Shown here in pieces: positions 962 to 64,000 of a stretch of DNA of 64,000 nucleotides. The notes under the pieces are model-generated. The model was not told the origin of the DNA. It ran no database searches and saw only the letters and a list, made by a program, of their open reading frames with translations. Location: the NCBI GenBank assembly GCA_024683775.1, contig GCA_024683775.1_4106.1. One strand, given 5' to 3'. This DNA comes from a phage. Within the stretch, counting starts at the first letter, position 1; every line of letters begins with the position of its first letter. Both the position numbers and the translations under genes were made by a program.

Positions 962-2086
962 TTAATTATCTAAGCCACCAATTACACTGAACTGTGTGGT
1001 AACGTCTGAACTATTATCTATGTAAGTTCTTCTACCAACATAATATAGTTGTCCTTTTGCTTGAATAAAAGTTACGGTCCCTGTATTAAATGTTATAATA
1101 TCATTGTATGTAATGTCAGGTGGTAGTGCTGCTGATAACGCAGTAACTTTACTTAATGCAGCACTAGTACTACCATTTATACCAGCAGCAATACTACCAG
1201 TACCATAGAACTTATTATCTTTACCAATGAATACGTTGGCTGATGCTTGTGTAGCTGATGTTATTGCCTTACCAATTTGGAATGCGGTTCCTATGGTGTA
1301 TGGTGTGCTCCTGGCAGCGTCTATGCTTTGTGTATATCCATCCCCTAGCTGACCATTAACTTTGTCACCACATGAGTATAGAGTACCATTGAGGCTGTAT
1401 ATGATCCCACGGTTAGAGAAGCTAACAGCTTCTGCATTAGTCCATACTGGTGCGGTGTATGAGTTTACACGACTCGCGGTAGTTCCTAGACCTAGTATAC
1501 CATATGTGTTATCACCACATCCAAACCATTGCCCAGAACTGTTTTGATAGAACACTGAACGTTCTGTTGATTCCATGCGTACAGCATCCACAGCACCACT
1601 TTTAACGAACGAAGTGGATGAGGATGTAGTACCAGTACCCAATGCACCATAAGTGTTTGTACCAATCGCATAGATTGATCCTAGTGGTGTCATAACACGT
1701 ATGCAGTTATATCCCAATTGAACTTTACATTCAAATAGGTTGTCCCATATTTCAGGAACAGCAGAAAATAAATTTGTAATTTCGAACCATGATGTTGTCG
1801 AACCAGTTAATCCTATACTGCTTTTGTTTCCTAAAATGAAAACAGTTTTGTCCTTCTTAATTATCCATGATGATAGGAAACCTATCTCACAGCTATGAAC
1901 ATTTGATTCTATTTGGGTAATATAATACTTAACTGTGTTATCACCCATGAATGCCGCAGCACCGGATGCAAAAAGGTTTCCAGTTTGTTTATTTAAAATG
2001 TAGTTATTGTTTCCATATACACTAACATCATAAGAACTTTCTTGTTTTTCGTTCCCATAATCAAATAACAATACGAAAGGTAACAT
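962..2086 (-). CDS. RCC1-like beta-propeller repeat protein, array member 1
   Basis: 374-aa ORF; N-term MLPFVLLFDYGN; SD AAGGAGA upstream; repeats like GTNTYGALGTG, GDKVNGQLGDG. Confidence 0.85.
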   Translation of the reverse strand: MLPFVLLFDYGNEKQESSYDVSVYGNNNYILNKQTGNLFASGAAAFMGDNTVKYYITQIESNVHSCEIGFLSSWIIKKDKTVFILGNKSSIGLTGSTTSWFEITNLFSAVPEIWDNLFECKVQLGYNCIRVMTPLGSIYAIGTNTYGALGTGTTSSSTSFVKSGAVDAVRMESTERSVFYQNSSGQWFGCGDNTYGILGLGTTASRVNSYTAPVWTNAEAVSFSNRGIIYSLNGTLYSCGDKVNGQLGDGYTQSIDAARSTPYTIGTAFQIGKAITSATQASANVFIGKDNKFYGTGSIAAGINGSTSAALSKVTALSAALPPDITYNDIITFNTGTVTFIQAKGQLYYVGRRTYIDNSSDVTTQFSVIGGLDN

Positions 2087-2163
2087 GATAAAATCTCCTT
2101 GTGTTATACTTTATTTAATCATTTTATAATGTACAATTTTACAGCGATTTAATTGAGGTACTC

Positions 2164-2814
2164 ATGAATAAAAGAAGTAAGTTCTATCAAGAATATTTCA
2201 CTAAACATAAACGATTCACAAAAAAATACTTTACATCATCCCACCGACCAGTTGCAAGTTACAAACGTCCTAATACTAACTATCTTGCTGGTGGCAAGTT
2301 TAGTGCAAAGTTCGAATTACTTATGCGTGAAAAGAATATCAAGATGCATTACGCAGAGACGAGAAAAAACTCATCAATTATTTGCTCTGATTTTCTTGAG
2401 TACGGTTGCTTAACTTATAAATTCAATGATGTATATTTGTATATTGATGTTGATTGTAACAGTACTCTTATGTTTGAGATTTCAATTCACCCAAATCACA
2501 ACCGTTATATAAACATTAACTTGATTGATAAAGTACTGATTGGTATATCTAGTACTGATGGTGGTGGATTTGAATTTATTGCTTCAAAATATGATGAAGA
2601 TTTCGTACTTTACCCAGTACTTGATGATGTGAAAGATATTCTCAATTCATTAAAAGGAAGTCAATACAAATTACCTGAAGAACAGCTATTTCAGTACTCA
2701 CTTATTCATGATGATATCGAGATATACTTAGAGTGTGCGAGAATCTTGGAGTATCTTTATAATGAACTAACAACAACTGGTAAAGTGACTGCATTCACAT
2801 TATATAATATGTAA
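2164..2814 (+). CDS. hypothetical protein with basic N-terminus and C-terminal EEQLFQYSLIHDD motif (EE-FQ family outlier)
   Basis: 216-aa ORF on opposite strand inside the array; SD GAGG upstream; shares the acidic-aromatic motif with the 55.6-64 kb family. Confidence 0.6.
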   Translation: MNKRSKFYQEYFTKHKRFTKKYFTSSHRPVASYKRPNTNYLAGGKFSAKFELLMREKNIKMHYAETRKNSSIICSDFLEYGCLTYKFNDVYLYIDVDCNSTLMFEISIHPNHNRYININLIDKVLIGISSTDGGGFEFIASKYDEDFVLYPVLDDVKDILNSLKGSQYKLPEEQLFQYSLIHDDIEIYLECARILEYLYNELTTTGKVTAFTLYNM

Positions 2815-2821
2815 AAGAAAT

Positions 2822-2841
2822 GCCAGTACTCAAGTACTGGC
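2822..2841. terminator. hairpin terminator (array cassette)
   Basis: GCCAGTACT-CA-AGTACTGGC palindrome; T-rich tract follows on minus strand. Confidence 0.55.
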
Positions 2842-2847
2842 ATTATA

Positions 2848-62397: not shown

Positions 62398-62592
62398 ATG
62401 ACCGCCTATGATATCAAACAAAGGCATACGAAGTTTGATTTGTTCACATACCAATTCCACAATGATATAGTGAATTTTAACATCAATGCGTCATTGCATC
62501 CTACATCACAAGATGATTTTGACAACAGAGTGCTTAACATCGTGGTGCTTTTGTGTTATAATCATTTCAGTGAATATTTTAACACAAGATAA
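62398..62592 (+). CDS. small hypothetical protein (64 aa)
   Basis: ORF 1 nt after previous stop. Confidence 0.45.
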   Translation: MTAYDIKQRHTKFDLFTYQFHNDIVNFNINASLHPTSQDDFDNRVLNIVVLLCYNHFSEYFNTR

Positions 62593-62605
62593 GGTTGAGG
62601 CACAC

Positions 62606-63124
62606 ATGTATCAGGCCAAGTACAATACATCATATGCATTTGCACACAACATTTTGAAGATCATCAAAGCGTTAGAGGGTGGATTGCTTAGTCATAAGTA
62701 CACCAAAGTAGGTGACAATTGGTTCAGAAATGATGATGAGTTCAGAAGTCATAAGATTGTTTACAGCAATAATTACAGTGCTAATTACCTTCAGGATGTT
62801 GCTATGTGCTTCGAATACGTGTTACAGTTCAGGGGTTCCATCAGTCCTGAGCTAAGAGAACACATGTACATTCGATACCTACCAATGCTTAAGGATGAGA
62901 AAACAATATTCAATTCAGTACACCACAGAGTACGAGAGAGAACATTCAGGGATATTTTAGAAGATGAAGCTGCATATTTCCAGCAATCATTGATTGATGC
63001 TCCTGATGTGTTACAGATGCAGAATTTGTATAATGTATTAGATGCGAACATCGATACGGATATCTTTTTTTCCTTAAGTGATTATGAAACATTTTTGGAA
63101 GATTTAAAGGAAATAGGATTATGA
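62606..63124 (+). CDS. EE-FQ family protein (172 aa)
   Basis: Start chosen at ATG 62606 with SD AAGGTTGAGG; motif EAAYFQQSLIDAPDVL. Confidence 0.6.
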   Translation: MYQAKYNTSYAFAHNILKIIKALEGGLLSHKYTKVGDNWFRNDDEFRSHKIVYSNNYSANYLQDVAMCFEYVLQFRGSISPELREHMYIRYLPMLKDEKTIFNSVHHRVRERTFRDILEDEAAYFQQSLIDAPDVLQMQNLYNVLDANIDTDIFFSLSDYETFLEDLKEIGL

Positions 63125-63465
63125 GTAGATTTTCAGTTTATATAGTAAACGTCAGTAAAGATGGTAGTTTAATTGAATTTGATGTAGTTGATGACAATGA
63201 TAATTCATATGGTATTAAGGTACAGGACAATGATGTACAGTTCAGTACAAGGACAAATTTTGAGAATCCAGTCCAAGTTCCGAATTTCATAGAAGATGAA
63301 GCTGCACGATTCCAATACGAAACGGCCTTTGATAATTTAGCGATGCATATTATTATGCAACAAAGTTTAGTTCAATTGCTTCAGGTATTCAGACAAAATA
63401 TATATGTACATGAAGTGTCGATTAATGGCATTCAAAGTTCCGTTTTGTTCGGTACAAATATGTAA
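63121..63465 (+). CDS. EE-FQ family protein (114 aa)
   Basis: ATGA overlap; motif EAARFQYETAFDNLAM. Confidence 0.55.
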   Translation: MSRFSVYIVNVSKDGSLIEFDVVDDNDNSYGIKVQDNDVQFSTRTNFENPVQVPNFIEDEAARFQYETAFDNLAMHIIMQQSLVQLLQVFRQNIYVHEVSINGIQSSVLFGTNM

Positions 63466-63475
63466 GGAAAGTACA

Positions 63476-64000
63476 ATGAGTTCAATGAGTTTATTAGATA
63501 CATTAGAAAAAGACAGAAGTGCCATTAAGAGATTAAAAAATCTTGTCCAGAGCATTGCGAACAACGCTGAGAAGTTCAGTGACAATCTTAGTATAGGTGA
63601 TATAACCAGTACAGGAATAAAATCCCTGAAGTCAGATTTATTAATTCATAAGGAAGATAAATTATTATTTGTATTGAGTTCAGATTTAATGGTTGCAAGT
63701 AATGGTTTCAATTCGATATCAACACAAGATGGTAGCACAGGATTATATCTATCACAGGGTGTCCAGACGAACGAACAAAAGTGTTTTAGTTCAGGAGTAC
63801 AGAATCCCTTTAAGTTCAGTACAGAACAAGCCACAGAGCTTTTAGAGGCTTCAGAAGAGATGTTATTTCAGTACAAAACGGTTCATACAGATTTTGAATT
63901 ACGATGCATGTACGCTGTTAAGCATTATGTTCAGGAGTTCGAGAATTTAAGTTATCTTTTAGTTCGAACGAATACAAAGAACATTGGTGCATTAGAAGAT
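63476..64000 (+). CDS. EE-FQ family protein, 3' end beyond window
   Basis: ATG 63476 with SD AAGGAAAG; open to window end; motif EEMLFQYKTVHTDFEL. Confidence 0.55.
   Translation, partial: MSSMSLLDTLEKDRSAIKRLKNLVQSIANNAEKFSDNLSIGDITSTGIKSLKSDLLIHKEDKLLFVLSSDLMVASNGFNSISTQDGSTGLYLSQGVQTNEQKCFSSGVQNPFKFSTEQATELLEASEEMLFQYKTVHTDFELRCMYAVKHYVQEFENLSYLLVRTNTKNIGALED

What the first reader, a model, noticed from the sequence alone, without database searches (positions are those of the whole stretch)
962..64000. Window-scale: more than half of all genes belong to four lineage-specific expanded families
RCC1-like array (18), small-protein array (22), LGTNYQ array (30) and EE-FQ family (at least 16) together account for about 86 of roughly 150 genes and more than 35 kb of 64 kb. 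The window contains no recognisable core phage replication or morphogenesis gene. This makes the region a candidate hyper-plastic accessory zone, and it raises the question whether the families act together, for example conserved docking peptides on diverse effectors.
Basis: inference. Interest (0 to 1): 0.7.

Follow-up and report, generated by a model that had tools for sequence, protein, structure and literature searches.

The report
Gene-family arrays flanking phage terminal repeat
This window is the end-joining region of a ~350-kb E. coli jumbo phage (Asteriusvirus group): a 21-kb terminal repeat packed with early promoters is flanked by four tandem gene families, of which only the 18 virion-associated RCC1-like propeller genes are reshuffled between close relatives, and most of this is already described for the group.

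Summary
The counts hold. Profile searches find 18 RCC1-like loci, 20-21 small proteins, 29-30 LGTNYQ proteins and 15-16 EE-FQ proteins, together 84 genes and 38.6 kb (60% of the window). Pfam and PHROGs find no replication or morphogenesis gene.

The context was missed. The window is from an Asteriusvirus jumbo coliphage (121Q/PBECO4 group). Positions 28675-49555 are its ~21-kb direct terminal repeat, so the arrays flank the chromosome ends.

"Hyper-plastic" fits only the RCC1 array. Against Ecwhy_1 and Turkey3 (93-99% nucleotide identity in matching stretches), only 6/18 and 9/18 RCC1 paralogs have an ortholog. For the other families and the repeat's genes the figure is 90-100%. RCC1 homology blocks end at a repeated terminator-promoter-RBS-MLPFxRMxxYGN module.

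Published mass spectrometry detected RCC1 orthologs in phAPEC6 and GAP32 virion preparations. The RCC1 genes are on the opposite strand and lack consensus sigma-70 promoters.

The LGTNYQ and EE-FQ motifs sit inside predicted folded domains and are not free docking peptides. The four families are not detectably related, and nothing suggests they act together.

The multi-copy RCC1 genes, a >30-gene tandem array in 121Q and the terminal repeat are already in the literature. Interest is moderate.

The parts
1..925 (+). Last three members (27-188, a fragment; 190-552; 554-925) of a run of small multi-pass membrane proteins that continues upstream of the window in relatives
   Evidence: Translations. 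In Turkey3 the same position holds seven consecutive 104-123-aa hydrophobic proteins. Only one pair is significantly similar, so family status is unproven.
962..23470 (-). Array of 18 RCC1-like beta-propeller genes of ~375-450 aa, plus one of 264 aa. Each starts with MLPF[VA]RM[FV][DK]YGN. About half have their own terminator-promoter-RBS module.
   Evidence: HMM search. Pfam RCC1 PF00415 is above its gathering score. The family profile matches solved RCC1-like domains, with RPGR at E=3e-33. Paralogs share 15-51% identity, median 21%. N-terminal codons are listed. Three paralogs (6928, 7794, 9035) are 79-90% identical to phAPEC6 gp007, gp003 and gp010, which were found in virions.
2164..2814 (+). 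EE-FQ family outlier (216 aa) inserted between the first and second RCC1 genes
   Evidence: HMM leave-one-out E=6e-6. The motif LPEEQLFQYSLIHDD is visible. The same position is conserved in Turkey3, Ecwhy_1 and 121Q.
12693..13872 (-). RCC1-like locus split by a 1-nt frame change into a 59-aa N-terminal piece (13693-13872) and a 358-aa body (12693-13769)
   Evidence: Both pieces are 100% identical in Ecwhy_1, which is split the same way. It is either a shared pseudogene or a gene that needs a frameshift.
5119..23504 (-). Nine copies of the module TTAAATATAGTATAATGAATAAAGGAG, at 5119, 8969, 11379, 12628, 13879, 19853, 21052, 22269 and 23478. Most are preceded by the hairpin GCCAGTACT..GTACTGGC plus a T-run, and all are followed by ATGTTACCTTTT.
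   Evidence: 9 matches against 0.00 expected, all inside the RCC1 array. Homology blocks shared with relatives end in this module.
23521..23549 (+). Sigma-70-like promoter (TTGACA-17-TACTAT) heading the small-protein array, with the palindrome TCAGTACTGA in its spacer
23575..28372 (+). Tightly packed array of 20-21 small proteins (59-81 aa), with N-terminal KEYY and C-terminal Y..vL.LI. It is interrupted by the EE-FQ-like gene at 25575-26234.
   Evidence: PHROG 11711. 20/21 members are conserved in Ecwhy_1. Adjacent members are more alike than non-adjacent ones, p=0.006.
28373..30407 (.). Non-coding terminal region containing the inferred physical left end of the genome (28675). It holds clustered TCAGTACTGA palindromes, three 53-nt tandem units (30201-30359) and an 8-nt periodic run (29453-29580).
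   Evidence: Position 1 of vB_Ec-M-J, fEgEco12, CRJP21, E9.1 and BF17 aligns to window 28675.
28675..49555 (+). Direct terminal repeat (~20.9 kb, by homology): ~50 small unrelated genes, most with their own near-consensus sigma-70 promoter and a 5' leader hairpin. GC is higher here (0.38-0.40).
   Evidence: The annotated repeat of vB_Ec-M-J (1-21525) aligns here. The 20,993-bp repeat of fEgEco12 was confirmed by PhageTerm and restriction digests (PMC13070987). The repeat holds 12 perfect promoters, 8 with 11/12 matches and 10 of the TTGCAA-16-TATAAT type, all on the + strand. The RCC1 and small-protein arrays hold none at >=11/12.
49595..49623 (+). Sigma-70-like promoter (TTGACT-16-TATTAT) just outside the terminal repeat, 30 nt upstream of the first LGTNYQ gene
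49653..57880 (+). Array of 29 LGTNYQ-family genes (65-94 aa, overlapping stop/start codons), plus the divergent 51354-51605. The last three members (56282, 57430, 57623) are interleaved with EE-FQ genes.
55584..64000 (+). EE-FQ family cluster of 13 members plus one ORF running off the window end (100-215 aa). Members share the motif [ST]EEE[YF]FQxSL[VI]xD between a variable beta-rich N-terminal part and C-terminal helices. The cluster continues beyond the window.

Best explanation
The window is the junction region of a collapsed or circularised assembly of an Asteriusvirus-type jumbo coliphage. In the packaged linear chromosome, the RCC1 array and the small-protein array lie next to the right copy of a ~21-kb direct terminal repeat. 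The LGTNYQ and EE-FQ arrays lie next to the left copy. Three kinds of region with different biology sit side by side.

1. The terminal repeat is inferred to be an immediate-early host-takeover module. It holds ~50 unrelated small genes, most with their own near-consensus host sigma-70 promoter and a leader hairpin.

2. The small-protein, LGTNYQ and EE-FQ arrays are old tandem-duplication families of small soluble proteins. They are packed into operons, and each of the two array heads has a sigma-70-like promoter. Their members are strongly diverged from one another (17-53% identity), yet each is kept between phages under purifying selection. These arrays are therefore stable sets of specialised paralogs, probably early or middle host-interaction proteins (inferred), and not sites of current turnover.

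3. The RCC1-like array is a cassette library. Each unit is a diverged seven-blade-type propeller gene. Units are separated by a conserved module of terminator hairpin, -10-like promoter, ribosome-binding site and the first 12 codons. Homologous recombination within that module adds, removes and swaps whole cassettes. As a result, close relatives carry different subsets (11-18 genes, each type once) drawn from a pool of at least 33 types.

The RCC1 products are virion-associated in two related phages. They are probably made late and carried in or on the particle (inferred), where repertoire variation would matter for host or defence interactions.

Shown here: family membership, terminal-repeat homology, promoter distribution, mosaicism and block boundaries, purifying selection, predicted folds. 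Inferred: expression timing, virion localisation in this particular phage, and all biochemical functions.
For: Identity and context:
- Megablast hits are at 93-98% to Asteriusvirus genomes.
- The terminal-repeat boundaries come from homology to records whose ends were determined (PMC13070987).

Promoters:
- All 12 perfect TTGACA-N16/17-TATAAT sites, and 20 of the 25 plus-strand sites with >=11/12 matches, lie in the repeat. The RCC1 and small-protein arrays have none at that level.
- The cassette structure of the repeat is visible.
- All 20 leaders tested fold into an 8-9-bp GC hairpin (mean z=-3.4; 19 of 20 below -2).
- Both array heads have sigma-70-like promoters.

Old tandem duplication:
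- Neighbours are more alike than non-neighbours in the LGTNYQ array (p=0.0005) and the small-protein array (p=0.006). This is not so in the RCC1 array (p=0.92).
- The highest identity between adjacent members is 0.53.

Stability against mosaicism:
- Ortholog tables are; Fisher tests.
- 67 RCC1 ORFs from 5 genomes fall into 33 types at 70% identity, each type once per genome and in largely collinear order.
- Paralog 22334 has 96-98% orthologs only in UB, slurp01 and Sharanji.

Recombination module:
- define it.
- Homology blocks start 34-43 nt inside the neighbouring gene's 5' end and stop in intergenic modules.

Purifying selection: dN/dS is 0.17-0.46 in all five gene sets.

Virion association:
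- phAPEC6 gp003, 005, 006, 007, 009, 010, 549 and 551 were detected by MS. Three of these map to window paralogs at 79-90% identity.
- GAP32_001 was identified as structural by MS and starts MLPFSRIIQYGN.

Literature agreement:
- Multiple RCC1 copies in 121Q and PBECO4.
- RCC1 proteins among the most divergent products between fEgEco12 and Ecwhy_1.
Against: - No expression data exist for this phage group, so timing is inferred from promoter motifs only. The RCC1 upstream motif (TATAGTATAAT, with no -35) is not the ATAAATA late motif reported for CBB and GAP32.
- Peptide counts for RCC1 proteins in phAPEC6 virions are low (1-5 peptides). Contamination or very low copy number cannot be excluded.
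- The baseline for 'stable' is only the rest of this window. I could not compare with the conserved core of the genome.
- Block boundaries at the conserved module are partly expected from the way BLAST extends through any conserved segment. They show where homology ends, not the recombination events themselves.
- At larger distances the small arrays also lose blocks. EC.P1 and WPEC3 lack the first ~2.4 kb of the LGTNYQ array at 97% identity, and phAPEC6 covers only 50% of it.
- The terminal repeat looks mosaic at the nucleotide level. Only one record covers >=80% of it in one place, and its dS is 0.15 against 0.04-0.06 in the arrays.
- dS values are low, so the dN/dS ratios are noisy.
Confidence: 0.72

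Rival explanations
1. One reading: the whole 63-kb stretch is one hyper-plastic accessory zone, and its four families cooperate, for example through short conserved docking peptides (LGTNYQ, EE-FQ) carried by diverse effectors.
For: More than half of the genes belong to four families. Short, highly conserved motifs exist in otherwise diverged proteins. The small-protein, LGTNYQ and EE-FQ genes share a strand and have sigma-70-like promoters at the array heads, so they may be co-expressed. Two EE-FQ-type genes are embedded in the RCC1 and small-protein arrays.
Against: Three of the four arrays are 90-100% conserved in gene content in close relatives. The motifs lie inside predicted folded domains. 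The families are unrelated. The RCC1 genes differ in strand and promoter type, and their orthologs in related phages are virion proteins. There is no evidence of any interaction.
Confidence: 0.08
2. The RCC1-like proteins are internal head proteins. One version makes them DNA-condensing or inner-body components, as the phAPEC6 authors proposed. Another makes them cargo ejected with the DNA, like T4 internal proteins. In both, the N-terminal 12-mer is the packaging signal and the diverse propellers are inhibitors of host defence proteins.
For: Orthologs are virion-associated. 121Q and phAPEC6 have an inner body. The N-terminal 12-mer is conserved across genera while the rest of the protein is ~25% identical. 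The repertoire varies between close relatives, as expected for arms-race genes. From my own knowledge: RCC1-like propellers can be tight protein inhibitors (BLIP-II), and T4 internal proteins combine a conserved N-terminal targeting sequence with variable bodies at a polymorphic locus.
Against: There is no conserved (L/I)xE protease motif after the 12-mer (2 of 18 sequences). No DNA-binding feature was found. The location within the virion is unknown. The RCC1 name reflects fold only.
Confidence: 0.22
3. The RCC1-like proteins are external decoration or adhesin proteins on the capsid or tail. The N-terminal 12-mer docks each onto a common site, and the variable propellers bind different host surface structures, so cassette shuffling tunes adsorption and host range.
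For: Orthologs are virion-associated. phAPEC6 and 121Q carry unassigned decoration densities and fibres on capsid and tail. The pattern of a conserved terminus plus a variable body, with cassette exchange, is typical of receptor-binding proteins (my own knowledge). Each gene has its own promoter and terminator.
Against: CBB has the hair-like fibres but no RCC1 homolog. A 40-kDa propeller is globular, not fibrous. Peptide counts are low. No carbohydrate-binding signature was found.
Confidence: 0.2
4. The arrays are largely functionless filler. After the capsid became larger, tandem duplication padded the genome (the ratchet model of Hua et al.), and the copies are drifting.
For: Hua et al. proposed tandem duplication as a route of jumbo genome growth and cited the 121Q array. 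No function is known. dN/dS of the small-protein and LGTNYQ genes (0.42-0.46) is higher than that of the terminal-repeat genes (0.17).
Against: dN/dS is below 1 in every set. Each paralog is retained at 80-100% aa identity in relatives, although paralogs share only ~25% with one another. The ORFs are intact and tightly coupled. The LGTNYQ model reaches pLDDT 97 from paralogs alone, which implies a conserved fold.
Confidence: 0.08
5. The conserved N-terminal 12-mer of the RCC1 proteins is not a signal. It would instead be the closing ('velcro') strand of the propeller, and/or be kept uniform because it is part of the recombining module and the translation-initiation region.
For: FDYGN and VKYGN resemble the LYxxGxN turn of the internal repeats (consensus). 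From my own knowledge, RCC1-type propellers close the ring with an N-terminal strand. The 12 codons are contiguous with the conserved promoter-RBS module, and homology blocks end right after them.
Against: The equivalent segments of the internal blades are far less conserved (0.27-0.41 against 0.61 column identity). The C-terminal blade that the strand would pair with is the least conserved part. Synonymous differences occur within the 12 codons. The peptide is kept in single-copy GAP32 gp001, where there is no array to homogenise it.
Confidence: 0.4

Closest known systems
Published Asteriusvirus genomes (121Q, PBECO4, phAPEC6, fEgEco12, vB_Ec-M-J, Ecwhy_1, Turkey3)
   Same: The layout is the same: RCC1-like array, small-protein array, ~21-kb direct terminal repeat, then the ~30-gene small-protein array. 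The literature already reports multi-copy RCC1-like genes, with 11 in phAPEC6 and most of them found in virions (PMC7247149). [quoted passage not shown]
   Different: This genome has the largest RCC1 array seen here: 18 genes against 17 in Turkey3, 13 in Ecwhy_1, ~12 in 121Q and 11 reported for phAPEC6. It carries a different cassette set; types 31-33 are absent from the four genomes compared. The cassette-junction module, the 12-mer, the promoter-leader cassettes of the terminal repeat, and the contrast between stable and mosaic arrays were not found in the papers I read.
Host-takeover modules in long terminal repeats of virulent phages: SPO1 terminal redundancy, T5 pre-early region, Kayvirus terminal-repeat genes (my own knowledge)
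   Same: Many small, mostly unique genes lie inside a long direct terminal repeat, each or most with a strong host-type early promoter. This is matched here by ~30 near-consensus sigma-70 promoters in 21 kb.
   Different: No sequence homology was tested or expected. Early expression and host shut-off are not shown here. The paralog arrays lie outside the repeat.
T4 internal proteins with a capsid-targeting sequence, and the hyperplastic regions of T4-like genomes (my own knowledge)
   Same: A conserved ~10-12-residue N-terminus sits on otherwise very different proteins. The genes are clustered at a locus whose content differs between close relatives, and the products are found in virions. The phage belongs to the wider T4-like group (PMC7824862).
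   Different: The bodies here are all RCC1-like propellers, not unrelated folds. There is no (L/I)xE cleavage motif. Head-internal location and ejection are untested.
Terminal multigene families of large eukaryotic DNA viruses: ASFV MGF families, poxvirus ankyrin and kelch families (my own knowledge)
   Same: Paralog families are concentrated next to the chromosome ends and terminal repeats. One of them is a beta-propeller repeat family, and copy number and content vary between strains.
   Different: This is a different virus realm with no homology implied. Only one of the four phage families shows strain-level turnover.
RCC1-like domain proteins (RCC1, RPGR, HERC1/2, UVR8)
   Same: The sequence repeats pass Pfam RCC1 thresholds and match solved RCC1-like domains at E=1e-20 to 3e-33.
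   Different: These are stand-alone ~375-aa proteins with a phage-specific N-terminal 12-mer. Nothing indicates GEF or chromatin functions, and the 'DNA condensation' label in phage records is a name transfer.

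Membership tests
RCC1-like repeat beta-propeller (Pfam RCC1 / RCC1_2 / RLD) | Repeats scoring above the curated Pfam threshold | tested here: met
   PF00415 scores 22.6, 50.2 and 25.5 bits against a cut-off of 21.7 in three paralogs. PF13540 scores 27.2 against 22 in one.
RCC1-like repeat beta-propeller (Pfam RCC1 / RCC1_2 / RLD) | Sequence similarity to solved seven-bladed RCC1-like domains | tested here: met
   The family profile hits RPGR at 3e-33, HERC1 at 4e-31, UVR8 at 1e-27 and RCC1 at 1e-19.
RCC1-like repeat beta-propeller (Pfam RCC1 / RCC1_2 / RLD) | Seven blades forming a closed propeller | tested here: inconclusive
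   About seven Y/W-x-x-G...G repeat units are visible in the 380-column consensus.
RCC1-like repeat beta-propeller (Pfam RCC1 / RCC1_2 / RLD) | Guanine-nucleotide exchange or chromatin/DNA-condensation activity | not testable with these tools
   Annotation in phage records is by name transfer only.
Long direct terminal repeat of Asteriusvirus genomes | Homology to, and the same boundaries as, experimentally supported terminal repeats | tested here: met
   Window 28675 aligns to position 1 of vB_Ec-M-J, fEgEco12, CRJP21, E9.1 and BF17. Window ~49555 aligns to the repeat ends at 21525 and 20993. The fEgEco12 repeat was confirmed by PhageTerm and restriction digests.
Long direct terminal repeat of Asteriusvirus genomes | Two copies per packaged chromosome (double read depth, end fragments) | not testable with these tools
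   Only one copy can be present in a 64-kb window of a collapsed assembly, and there are no reads.
Terminal-repeat host-takeover (immediate-early) module, SPO1/T5 type | Many small genes, each with a strong host-type promoter | tested here: met
   There are 12 perfect sites, 8 with 11/12 matches and 10 of the TTGCAA-16-TATAAT type on the coding strand. The scan found 105 promoter-like sites against 66.7+/-7.3 in shuffles.
Terminal-repeat host-takeover (immediate-early) module, SPO1/T5 type | Transcription in the first minutes of infection, and host shut-off activity | not testable with these tools
   I found no transcriptome for this genus in the papers searched.
Tandem-duplication gene family | Same-strand head-to-tail homologs, with neighbours more similar than distant members | tested here: met
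   LGTNYQ: adjacent 0.298 against 0.238, p=0.0005. Small-protein family: 0.259 against 0.214, p=0.006. This is not met for RCC1 (0.208 against 0.218, p=0.92).
Hyperplastic region (gene content differs between close relatives) | Low ortholog retention in relatives of >=93% nucleotide identity | tested here: met
   This holds for the RCC1 array only: 6/18 in Ecwhy_1 and 9/18 in Turkey3.
Hyperplastic region (gene content differs between close relatives) | The same criterion applied to the small-protein, LGTNYQ and EE-FQ arrays | tested here: not met
   Retention is 20/21, 29/29 and 15/16 in Ecwhy_1, and 19/21, 26/29 and 16/16 in Turkey3.
T4-type internal proteins with a capsid-targeting sequence | Conserved N-terminal ~10-residue peptide on divergent proteins | tested here: met
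   All 18 loci, and GAP32 gp001, start with MLPFxRhhxYGN.
T4-type internal proteins with a capsid-targeting sequence | Prohead-protease cleavage motif (L/I)xE directly after the targeting peptide | tested here: not met
   Only 2 of 18 sequences have any (L/I)xE in the first 40 residues, and not at a common position.
T4-type internal proteins with a capsid-targeting sequence | Location inside the head and ejection with the DNA | not testable with these tools
   MS shows virion association in phAPEC6 and GAP32 but not the location.

The most novel reading that the evidence does not exclude
The RCC1-like array is a recombining cassette library of virion-carried beta-propeller proteins. The 12-residue N-terminus MLPFxRMxxYGN, conserved from single-copy GAP32 gp001 to the 11-18-copy Asteriusvirus arrays, would be a universal signal that loads any propeller onto or into the particle. 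The terminator-promoter-RBS-12-codon module would be the built-in recombination site that lets phages exchange whole cassettes, giving each isolate its own set of host-interaction or anti-defence proteins. This would be a propeller-based analogue of T4 internal proteins or of receptor-binding-protein cassettes.
Probability: 0.3. Interest if true: 0.7.

Novelty: new member of a known kind. Interest (0 to 1): 0.4.

Why it matters
Jumbo phages are candidates for phage therapy, yet over 80% of their genes have no assigned function. This analysis shows that the paralog arrays next to the chromosome ends are not one uniform variable zone. That narrows the search for host-range or anti-defence determinants to a single 22-kb array of virion-associated propeller genes whose content differs between near-identical phages.

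It also supplies concrete handles for experiments:
- a 12-residue N-terminal peptide to mutate;
- a defined junction module for engineering cassette swaps;
- a terminal repeat with ~30 consensus promoters and a conserved leader hairpin, useful for studying early gene control.

The three small-protein families are stable, selected and confined to this lineage. They are good targets for systematic early-protein screens.

Tried and rejected
- **Cross-family homology.** hhalign gave probability 2.9% for LGTNYQ against the small-protein family, and 0.1% for EE-FQ against LGTNYQ. I rejected a common origin.
- **DUF2283 hint for EE-FQ.** The hint came from one UniRef name. Pfam supports it in only 1 of 15 members, at E=0.13. 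Rejected.
- **T4-like targeting and cleavage motif** in the RCC1 N-termini: not found.
- **'Hairs are RCC1 proteins.'** This is weakened because CBB has hairs but no RCC1 homolog.
- **T4-type late promoter upstream of the RCC1 genes.** The module contains TATAAT-like and TAAATA-like strings. It does not match the ATAAATA motif described for CBB and GAP32. Left open.
- **RNAalifold on the terminal-repeat leaders** returned no consensus because the alignment was out of register. Single-sequence folding showed the hairpin.
- **Other null results.** The tRNA and Rfam scans were empty. The JP4 supplementary MS tables held as text contain no RCC1 entry.
- **Technical point.** Loci fetched in one parallel batch are stored together in a single file (L002.fa holds L002-L005). 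An early script failed for that reason.
- **Genome-wide baseline.** A baseline for plasticity could not be made from a single window.

Full report
**What the window is**

Megablast places the window in the Asteriusvirus group of ~350-385-kb E. coli jumbo myophages (121Q, PBECO4, phAPEC6 and relatives). The best matches are Turkey3, Ecwhy_1, WPEC5, CMSTMSU and vB_Ec-M-J, at 93-98% identity. No record is identical, so this is a further member of the group.

The annotated direct terminal repeat of vB_Ec-M-J (1-21525) aligns to window 28675-~49555. Position 1 of five independently deposited genomes aligns to window 28675. The 20,993-bp repeat of fEgEco12 was confirmed by PhageTerm and restriction digests (PMC13070987).

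The window therefore spans the point where the two chromosome ends meet in a collapsed assembly. In the virion DNA, the RCC1 and small-protein arrays lie next to the right copy of the repeat. The LGTNYQ and EE-FQ arrays lie next to the left copy. GC content rises to 0.38-0.40 in the repeat, against 0.31-0.35 in the arrays.

**Check of the observation**

BLASTP clustering and iterated HMM searches of all six-frame ORFs, with leave-one-out controls, give these counts:
- 18 RCC1-like loci;
- 20 small proteins, plus one borderline;
- 29 LGTNYQ proteins, plus one divergent;
- 12 EE-FQ proteins by HMM, or 15 by motif alignment, plus one ORF that runs off the window end.

Together this is 84 genes and 38.6 kb, 60% of the window.

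RCC1 repeats pass Pfam thresholds, and the family profile hits solved RCC1-like domains at up to 3e-33. The other three families have no Pfam match. They correspond to PHROGs of unknown function.

Among 62 remaining proteins, Pfam recognises only a DksA/TraR zinc finger, a GNAT acetyltransferase, a ParE-like domain and two DUF7249 proteins. The PHROG families listed for these proteins have no functional description (25 of 52 shown).

Database searches find the three small families mainly on ~345-380-kb Asteriusvirus-like contigs, plus Salmonella SD phages. A full HMMER scan of 1.84 billion representatives finds only 93 LGTNYQ-type proteins. A fold match suggests the EE-FQ domain also exists in RaK2.

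**The terminal repeat**

All 12 perfect TTGACA-N16/17-TATAAT promoters in the window lie inside the repeat on the coding strand. So do 20 of the 25 plus-strand sites with at least 11/12 matches, and all ten TTGCAA-16-TATAAT sites. The RCC1 and small-protein arrays have none at the 11/12 level.

The promoters belong to a repeated cassette:
- an A-rich stretch plus AGTAC;
- the -35 element;
- a spacer that often ends in AGTACTG;
- TATAAT;
- GTTTTACATC;
- an 8-9-bp GC hairpin;
- the ribosome-binding site and ATG.

All 20 leaders tested fold into this hairpin, with stems that differ in sequence (mean z=-3.4; 19 of 20 below -2). The apparent N-termini MFYIERGK and MVLPxNEE in naive ORF calls are translations of this leader.

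This architecture matches what is known for host-takeover modules in the terminal repeats of SPO1, T5 and Kayvirus (my own knowledge). For the related phage CBB, the literature suspects that clustered RpoD-like promoters mark early genes. Early expression in this phage is an inference.

**The three small-protein families**

The small-protein and LGTNYQ arrays are packed with overlapping stop and start codons. Each is headed by a sigma-70-like promoter, at 23521 and 49595.

Adjacent members are more similar than non-adjacent ones (p=0.006 and p=0.0005). The closest adjacent pair is only 53% identical, so the duplications are old.

AlphaFold2, run on the 29 paralogs alone, gives a four-helix domain at pLDDT 97. 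LGTNYQ forms the connection between helices 3 and 4.

The EE-FQ model (pLDDT 80) is a beta-sheet with two helices, and the motif lies in the first helix. Neither model has an informative structural neighbour.

The motifs are therefore cores of small folded domains and not free docking peptides. The families are unrelated to each other.

**Test of plasticity**

| Gene set | Orthologs >=80% aa in Ecwhy_1 | in Turkey3 |
|---|---|---|
| Small-protein array | 20/21 | 19/21 |
| Terminal-repeat genes | 49/51 | 49/51 |
| LGTNYQ array | 29/29 | 26/29 |
| EE-FQ family | 15/16 | 16/16 |
| RCC1 array | 6/18 | 9/18 |

Fisher tests of RCC1 against the rest give p=6e-10 and p=1e-5.

dN/dS between the window and Turkey3 is 0.17-0.46 in all sets. 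The genes are under selection and are not drifting filler.

At larger distances the small arrays do change. EC.P1 and WPEC3 lack the first ~2.4 kb of the LGTNYQ array, phAPEC6 covers half of it, and 121Q has 16 small-protein genes. Ecwhy_1's annotation maps three adjacent LGTNYQ genes to a single 121Q gene.

The terminal repeat keeps its genes in close relatives but looks mosaic at the nucleotide level. Only one record covers at least 80% of it in one place. Pieces of it match 225 records, including rV5-like coliphages. Its dS is higher than that of the arrays.

**The RCC1 array as a cassette library**

The 18 paralogs share 15-51% identity, median 21%. Each type that is shared with a relative is 93-100% identical there.

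Sixty-seven RCC1 ORFs from five genomes fall into 33 types at 70% identity. Each type occurs once per genome, in largely collinear order. Array sizes are 18 here, 17 annotated in Turkey3, 13 in Ecwhy_1 and ~12 in 121Q, with 11 reported for phAPEC6.

About half of the genes are preceded by a conserved module: a hairpin GCCAGTACT..GTACTGGC with a T-run, then TTAAATATAGTATAATGAATAAAGGAG, then ATGTTACCTTTT. The core motif occurs nine times against none expected, and only in this array.

Homology blocks shared with Turkey3, Ecwhy_1 and 121Q begin 34-43 nt inside the 5' end of the neighbouring gene and stop in the intergenic modules. This fits exchange of whole cassettes by recombination in the module.

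There is no neighbour effect in this array (p=0.92). That fits shuffling or great age better than recent duplication.

**The N-terminal 12-mer**

All 18 loci begin with MLPF[VA]RM[FV][DK]YGN. There are two co-varying subtypes, and some synonymous differences occur within these codons.

The single-copy RCC1-like protein gp001 of the distant phage GAP32 begins MLPFSRIIQYGN. The first 20 alignment columns are far more conserved than any later block (0.61 against 0.24-0.41).

The peptide could be any of three things:
- a common incorporation or docking signal;
- the closing strand of the propeller;
- a by-product of the recombining module and the translation-initiation region.

No T4-type (L/I)xE cleavage motif follows it. 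I could not predict a structure for this family, so the question stays open.

**What the RCC1 proteins do**

In phAPEC6, eight RCC1-like proteins were detected in purified virions (PMC7247149). Three of them are 79-90% identical to window paralogs 7794, 6928 and 9035. GAP32 gp001 was also identified by mass spectrometry as a structural protein (PMC5259590).

The same paper notes that CBB has hair-like fibres but no RCC1 homolog. This weakens the idea that these proteins are the hairs.

The phAPEC6 authors suggested a role in the inner body and DNA condensation. An ejected anti-defence role or an external adhesin role fits the cassette variation equally well. None of these is shown.

**Comparison with the literature, and verdict**

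The following are already published:
- multi-copy RCC1-like genes in 121Q, PBECO4 and phAPEC6;
- the ~21-kb terminal repeats;
- divergent RCC1 proteins between fEgEco12 and Ecwhy_1.

The finding is thus a correct description of a known kind of genome region in a new member of the group.

This analysis adds several points:
- the placement of the arrays around the terminal repeat;
- the demonstration that only the RCC1 array turns over between close relatives;
- the cassette-junction module and the genus-spanning N-terminal 12-mer;
- the promoter-leader cassette structure of the repeat;
- the evidence that the LGTNYQ and EE-FQ motifs are domain cores.

The cooperative docking-peptide idea is not supported.

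Noticed in passing
window 28675-49555: The terminal repeat is built from ~30-35 copies of one early promoter-leader cassette: AGTAC, a -35 of TTGACA or TTGCAA, a spacer ending in AGTACTG, TATAAT, GTTTTACATC, an 8-9-bp GC hairpin, then the RBS. All 20 leaders tested fold into the hairpin (mean z=-3.4; 19 of 20 below -2), and the stems show compensatory differences. The hairpin's role (mRNA stability, or a regulator site) is unknown.
   Followed up: partly
window 28373-30407, also 23532, 31750-33869: The palindrome TCAGTACTGA occurs 19 times against 0.11 expected, and 13 of the copies lie between 28.6 and 33.9 kb. It sits in the spacers of several promoters (23521, 29040), an operator-like position, and in three 53-nt tandem units (30201-30359). 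An 8-nt periodic run, GGATGGCT/AGACGGCT, lies at 29453-29580. These are candidate protein-binding, packaging or origin elements at the physical genome end.
   Followed up: partly
window 38385-38412, 42030-42057, 45313-45340, 48073-48100: Four copies of a 12-bp-stem hairpin, AAAGGGATTGACTCCGGTCAGTCCCTTT, are each followed by GCTATTATAT. A -35-like TTGACT is thus buried in a hairpin stem upstream of a -10-like TATTAT, which might be a terminator-promoter combination or a structured regulatory site.
   Followed up: no
window 12693-13872 (-): One RCC1 locus is split by a single extra base (..CGT GGA C GGA AAC..) into 59-aa and 358-aa ORFs. Both pieces are 100% identical, and split in the same way, in Ecwhy_1. 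121Q also has several split RCC1 loci. These are either shared pseudogenes or genes that need a frameshift.
   Followed up: partly
window 1-925; L002 (Turkey3) 22623-25062: The first three ORFs of the window are the end of a run of seven consecutive 104-123-aa proteins, each with about three hydrophobic helices and a basic C-terminus. This may be a fifth tandem family, of membrane proteins, just upstream of the RCC1 array. Only one pair is significantly similar in sequence.
   Followed up: partly
window 28675-49555: Pieces of the terminal repeat match 225 phage records at 80-95% nucleotide identity. These include unrelated groups: rV5-like and Phapecoctavirus coliphages, Shigella SF1-1, Klebsiella phages and 13 Campylobacter phage records. 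This suggests horizontal exchange of individual early-gene cassettes, or of the shared promoter-leader element. The Campylobacter hits were not examined.
   Followed up: no
window 40370-40627, 40691-41047, 44660-45301: The few recognisable genes in the terminal repeat are a DksA/TraR-type zinc finger, a GNAT acetyltransferase and a protein that relatives annotate as a Ser/Thr kinase-like protein. A ParE-like domain and two DUF7249 proteins were also hit among the 62 proteins scanned, but I did not map them to ORFs. All are plausible host-takeover functions.
   Followed up: no
window 52939-53642: Three adjacent LGTNYQ genes (45-53% identical to one another) correspond to Ecwhy_1 genes whose annotation notes all point to the single 121Q gene 333. 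Two further neighbours map to 121Q gene 337. These appear to be lineage-specific duplications within the otherwise old array.
   Followed up: no
window 28675-49555 compared with the flanking arrays: Synonymous divergence from Turkey3 is about three times higher in the terminal-repeat genes (dS 0.15) than in the flanking arrays (0.04-0.06). GC is also higher (0.38-0.40 against 0.31-0.35). The repeat may have a different evolutionary history or recombination regime from its flanks.
   Followed up: no
window 6928-7722 (-) and 6543-6809 (-): The short (264-aa) RCC1 paralog is not an obvious pseudogene. Its 81%-identical ortholog, phAPEC6 gp007 (30 kDa), was detected in virions with 17.5% sequence coverage. 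The adjacent 88-aa RCC1-like ORF fragment at 6543-6809 is unexplained.
   Followed up: partly
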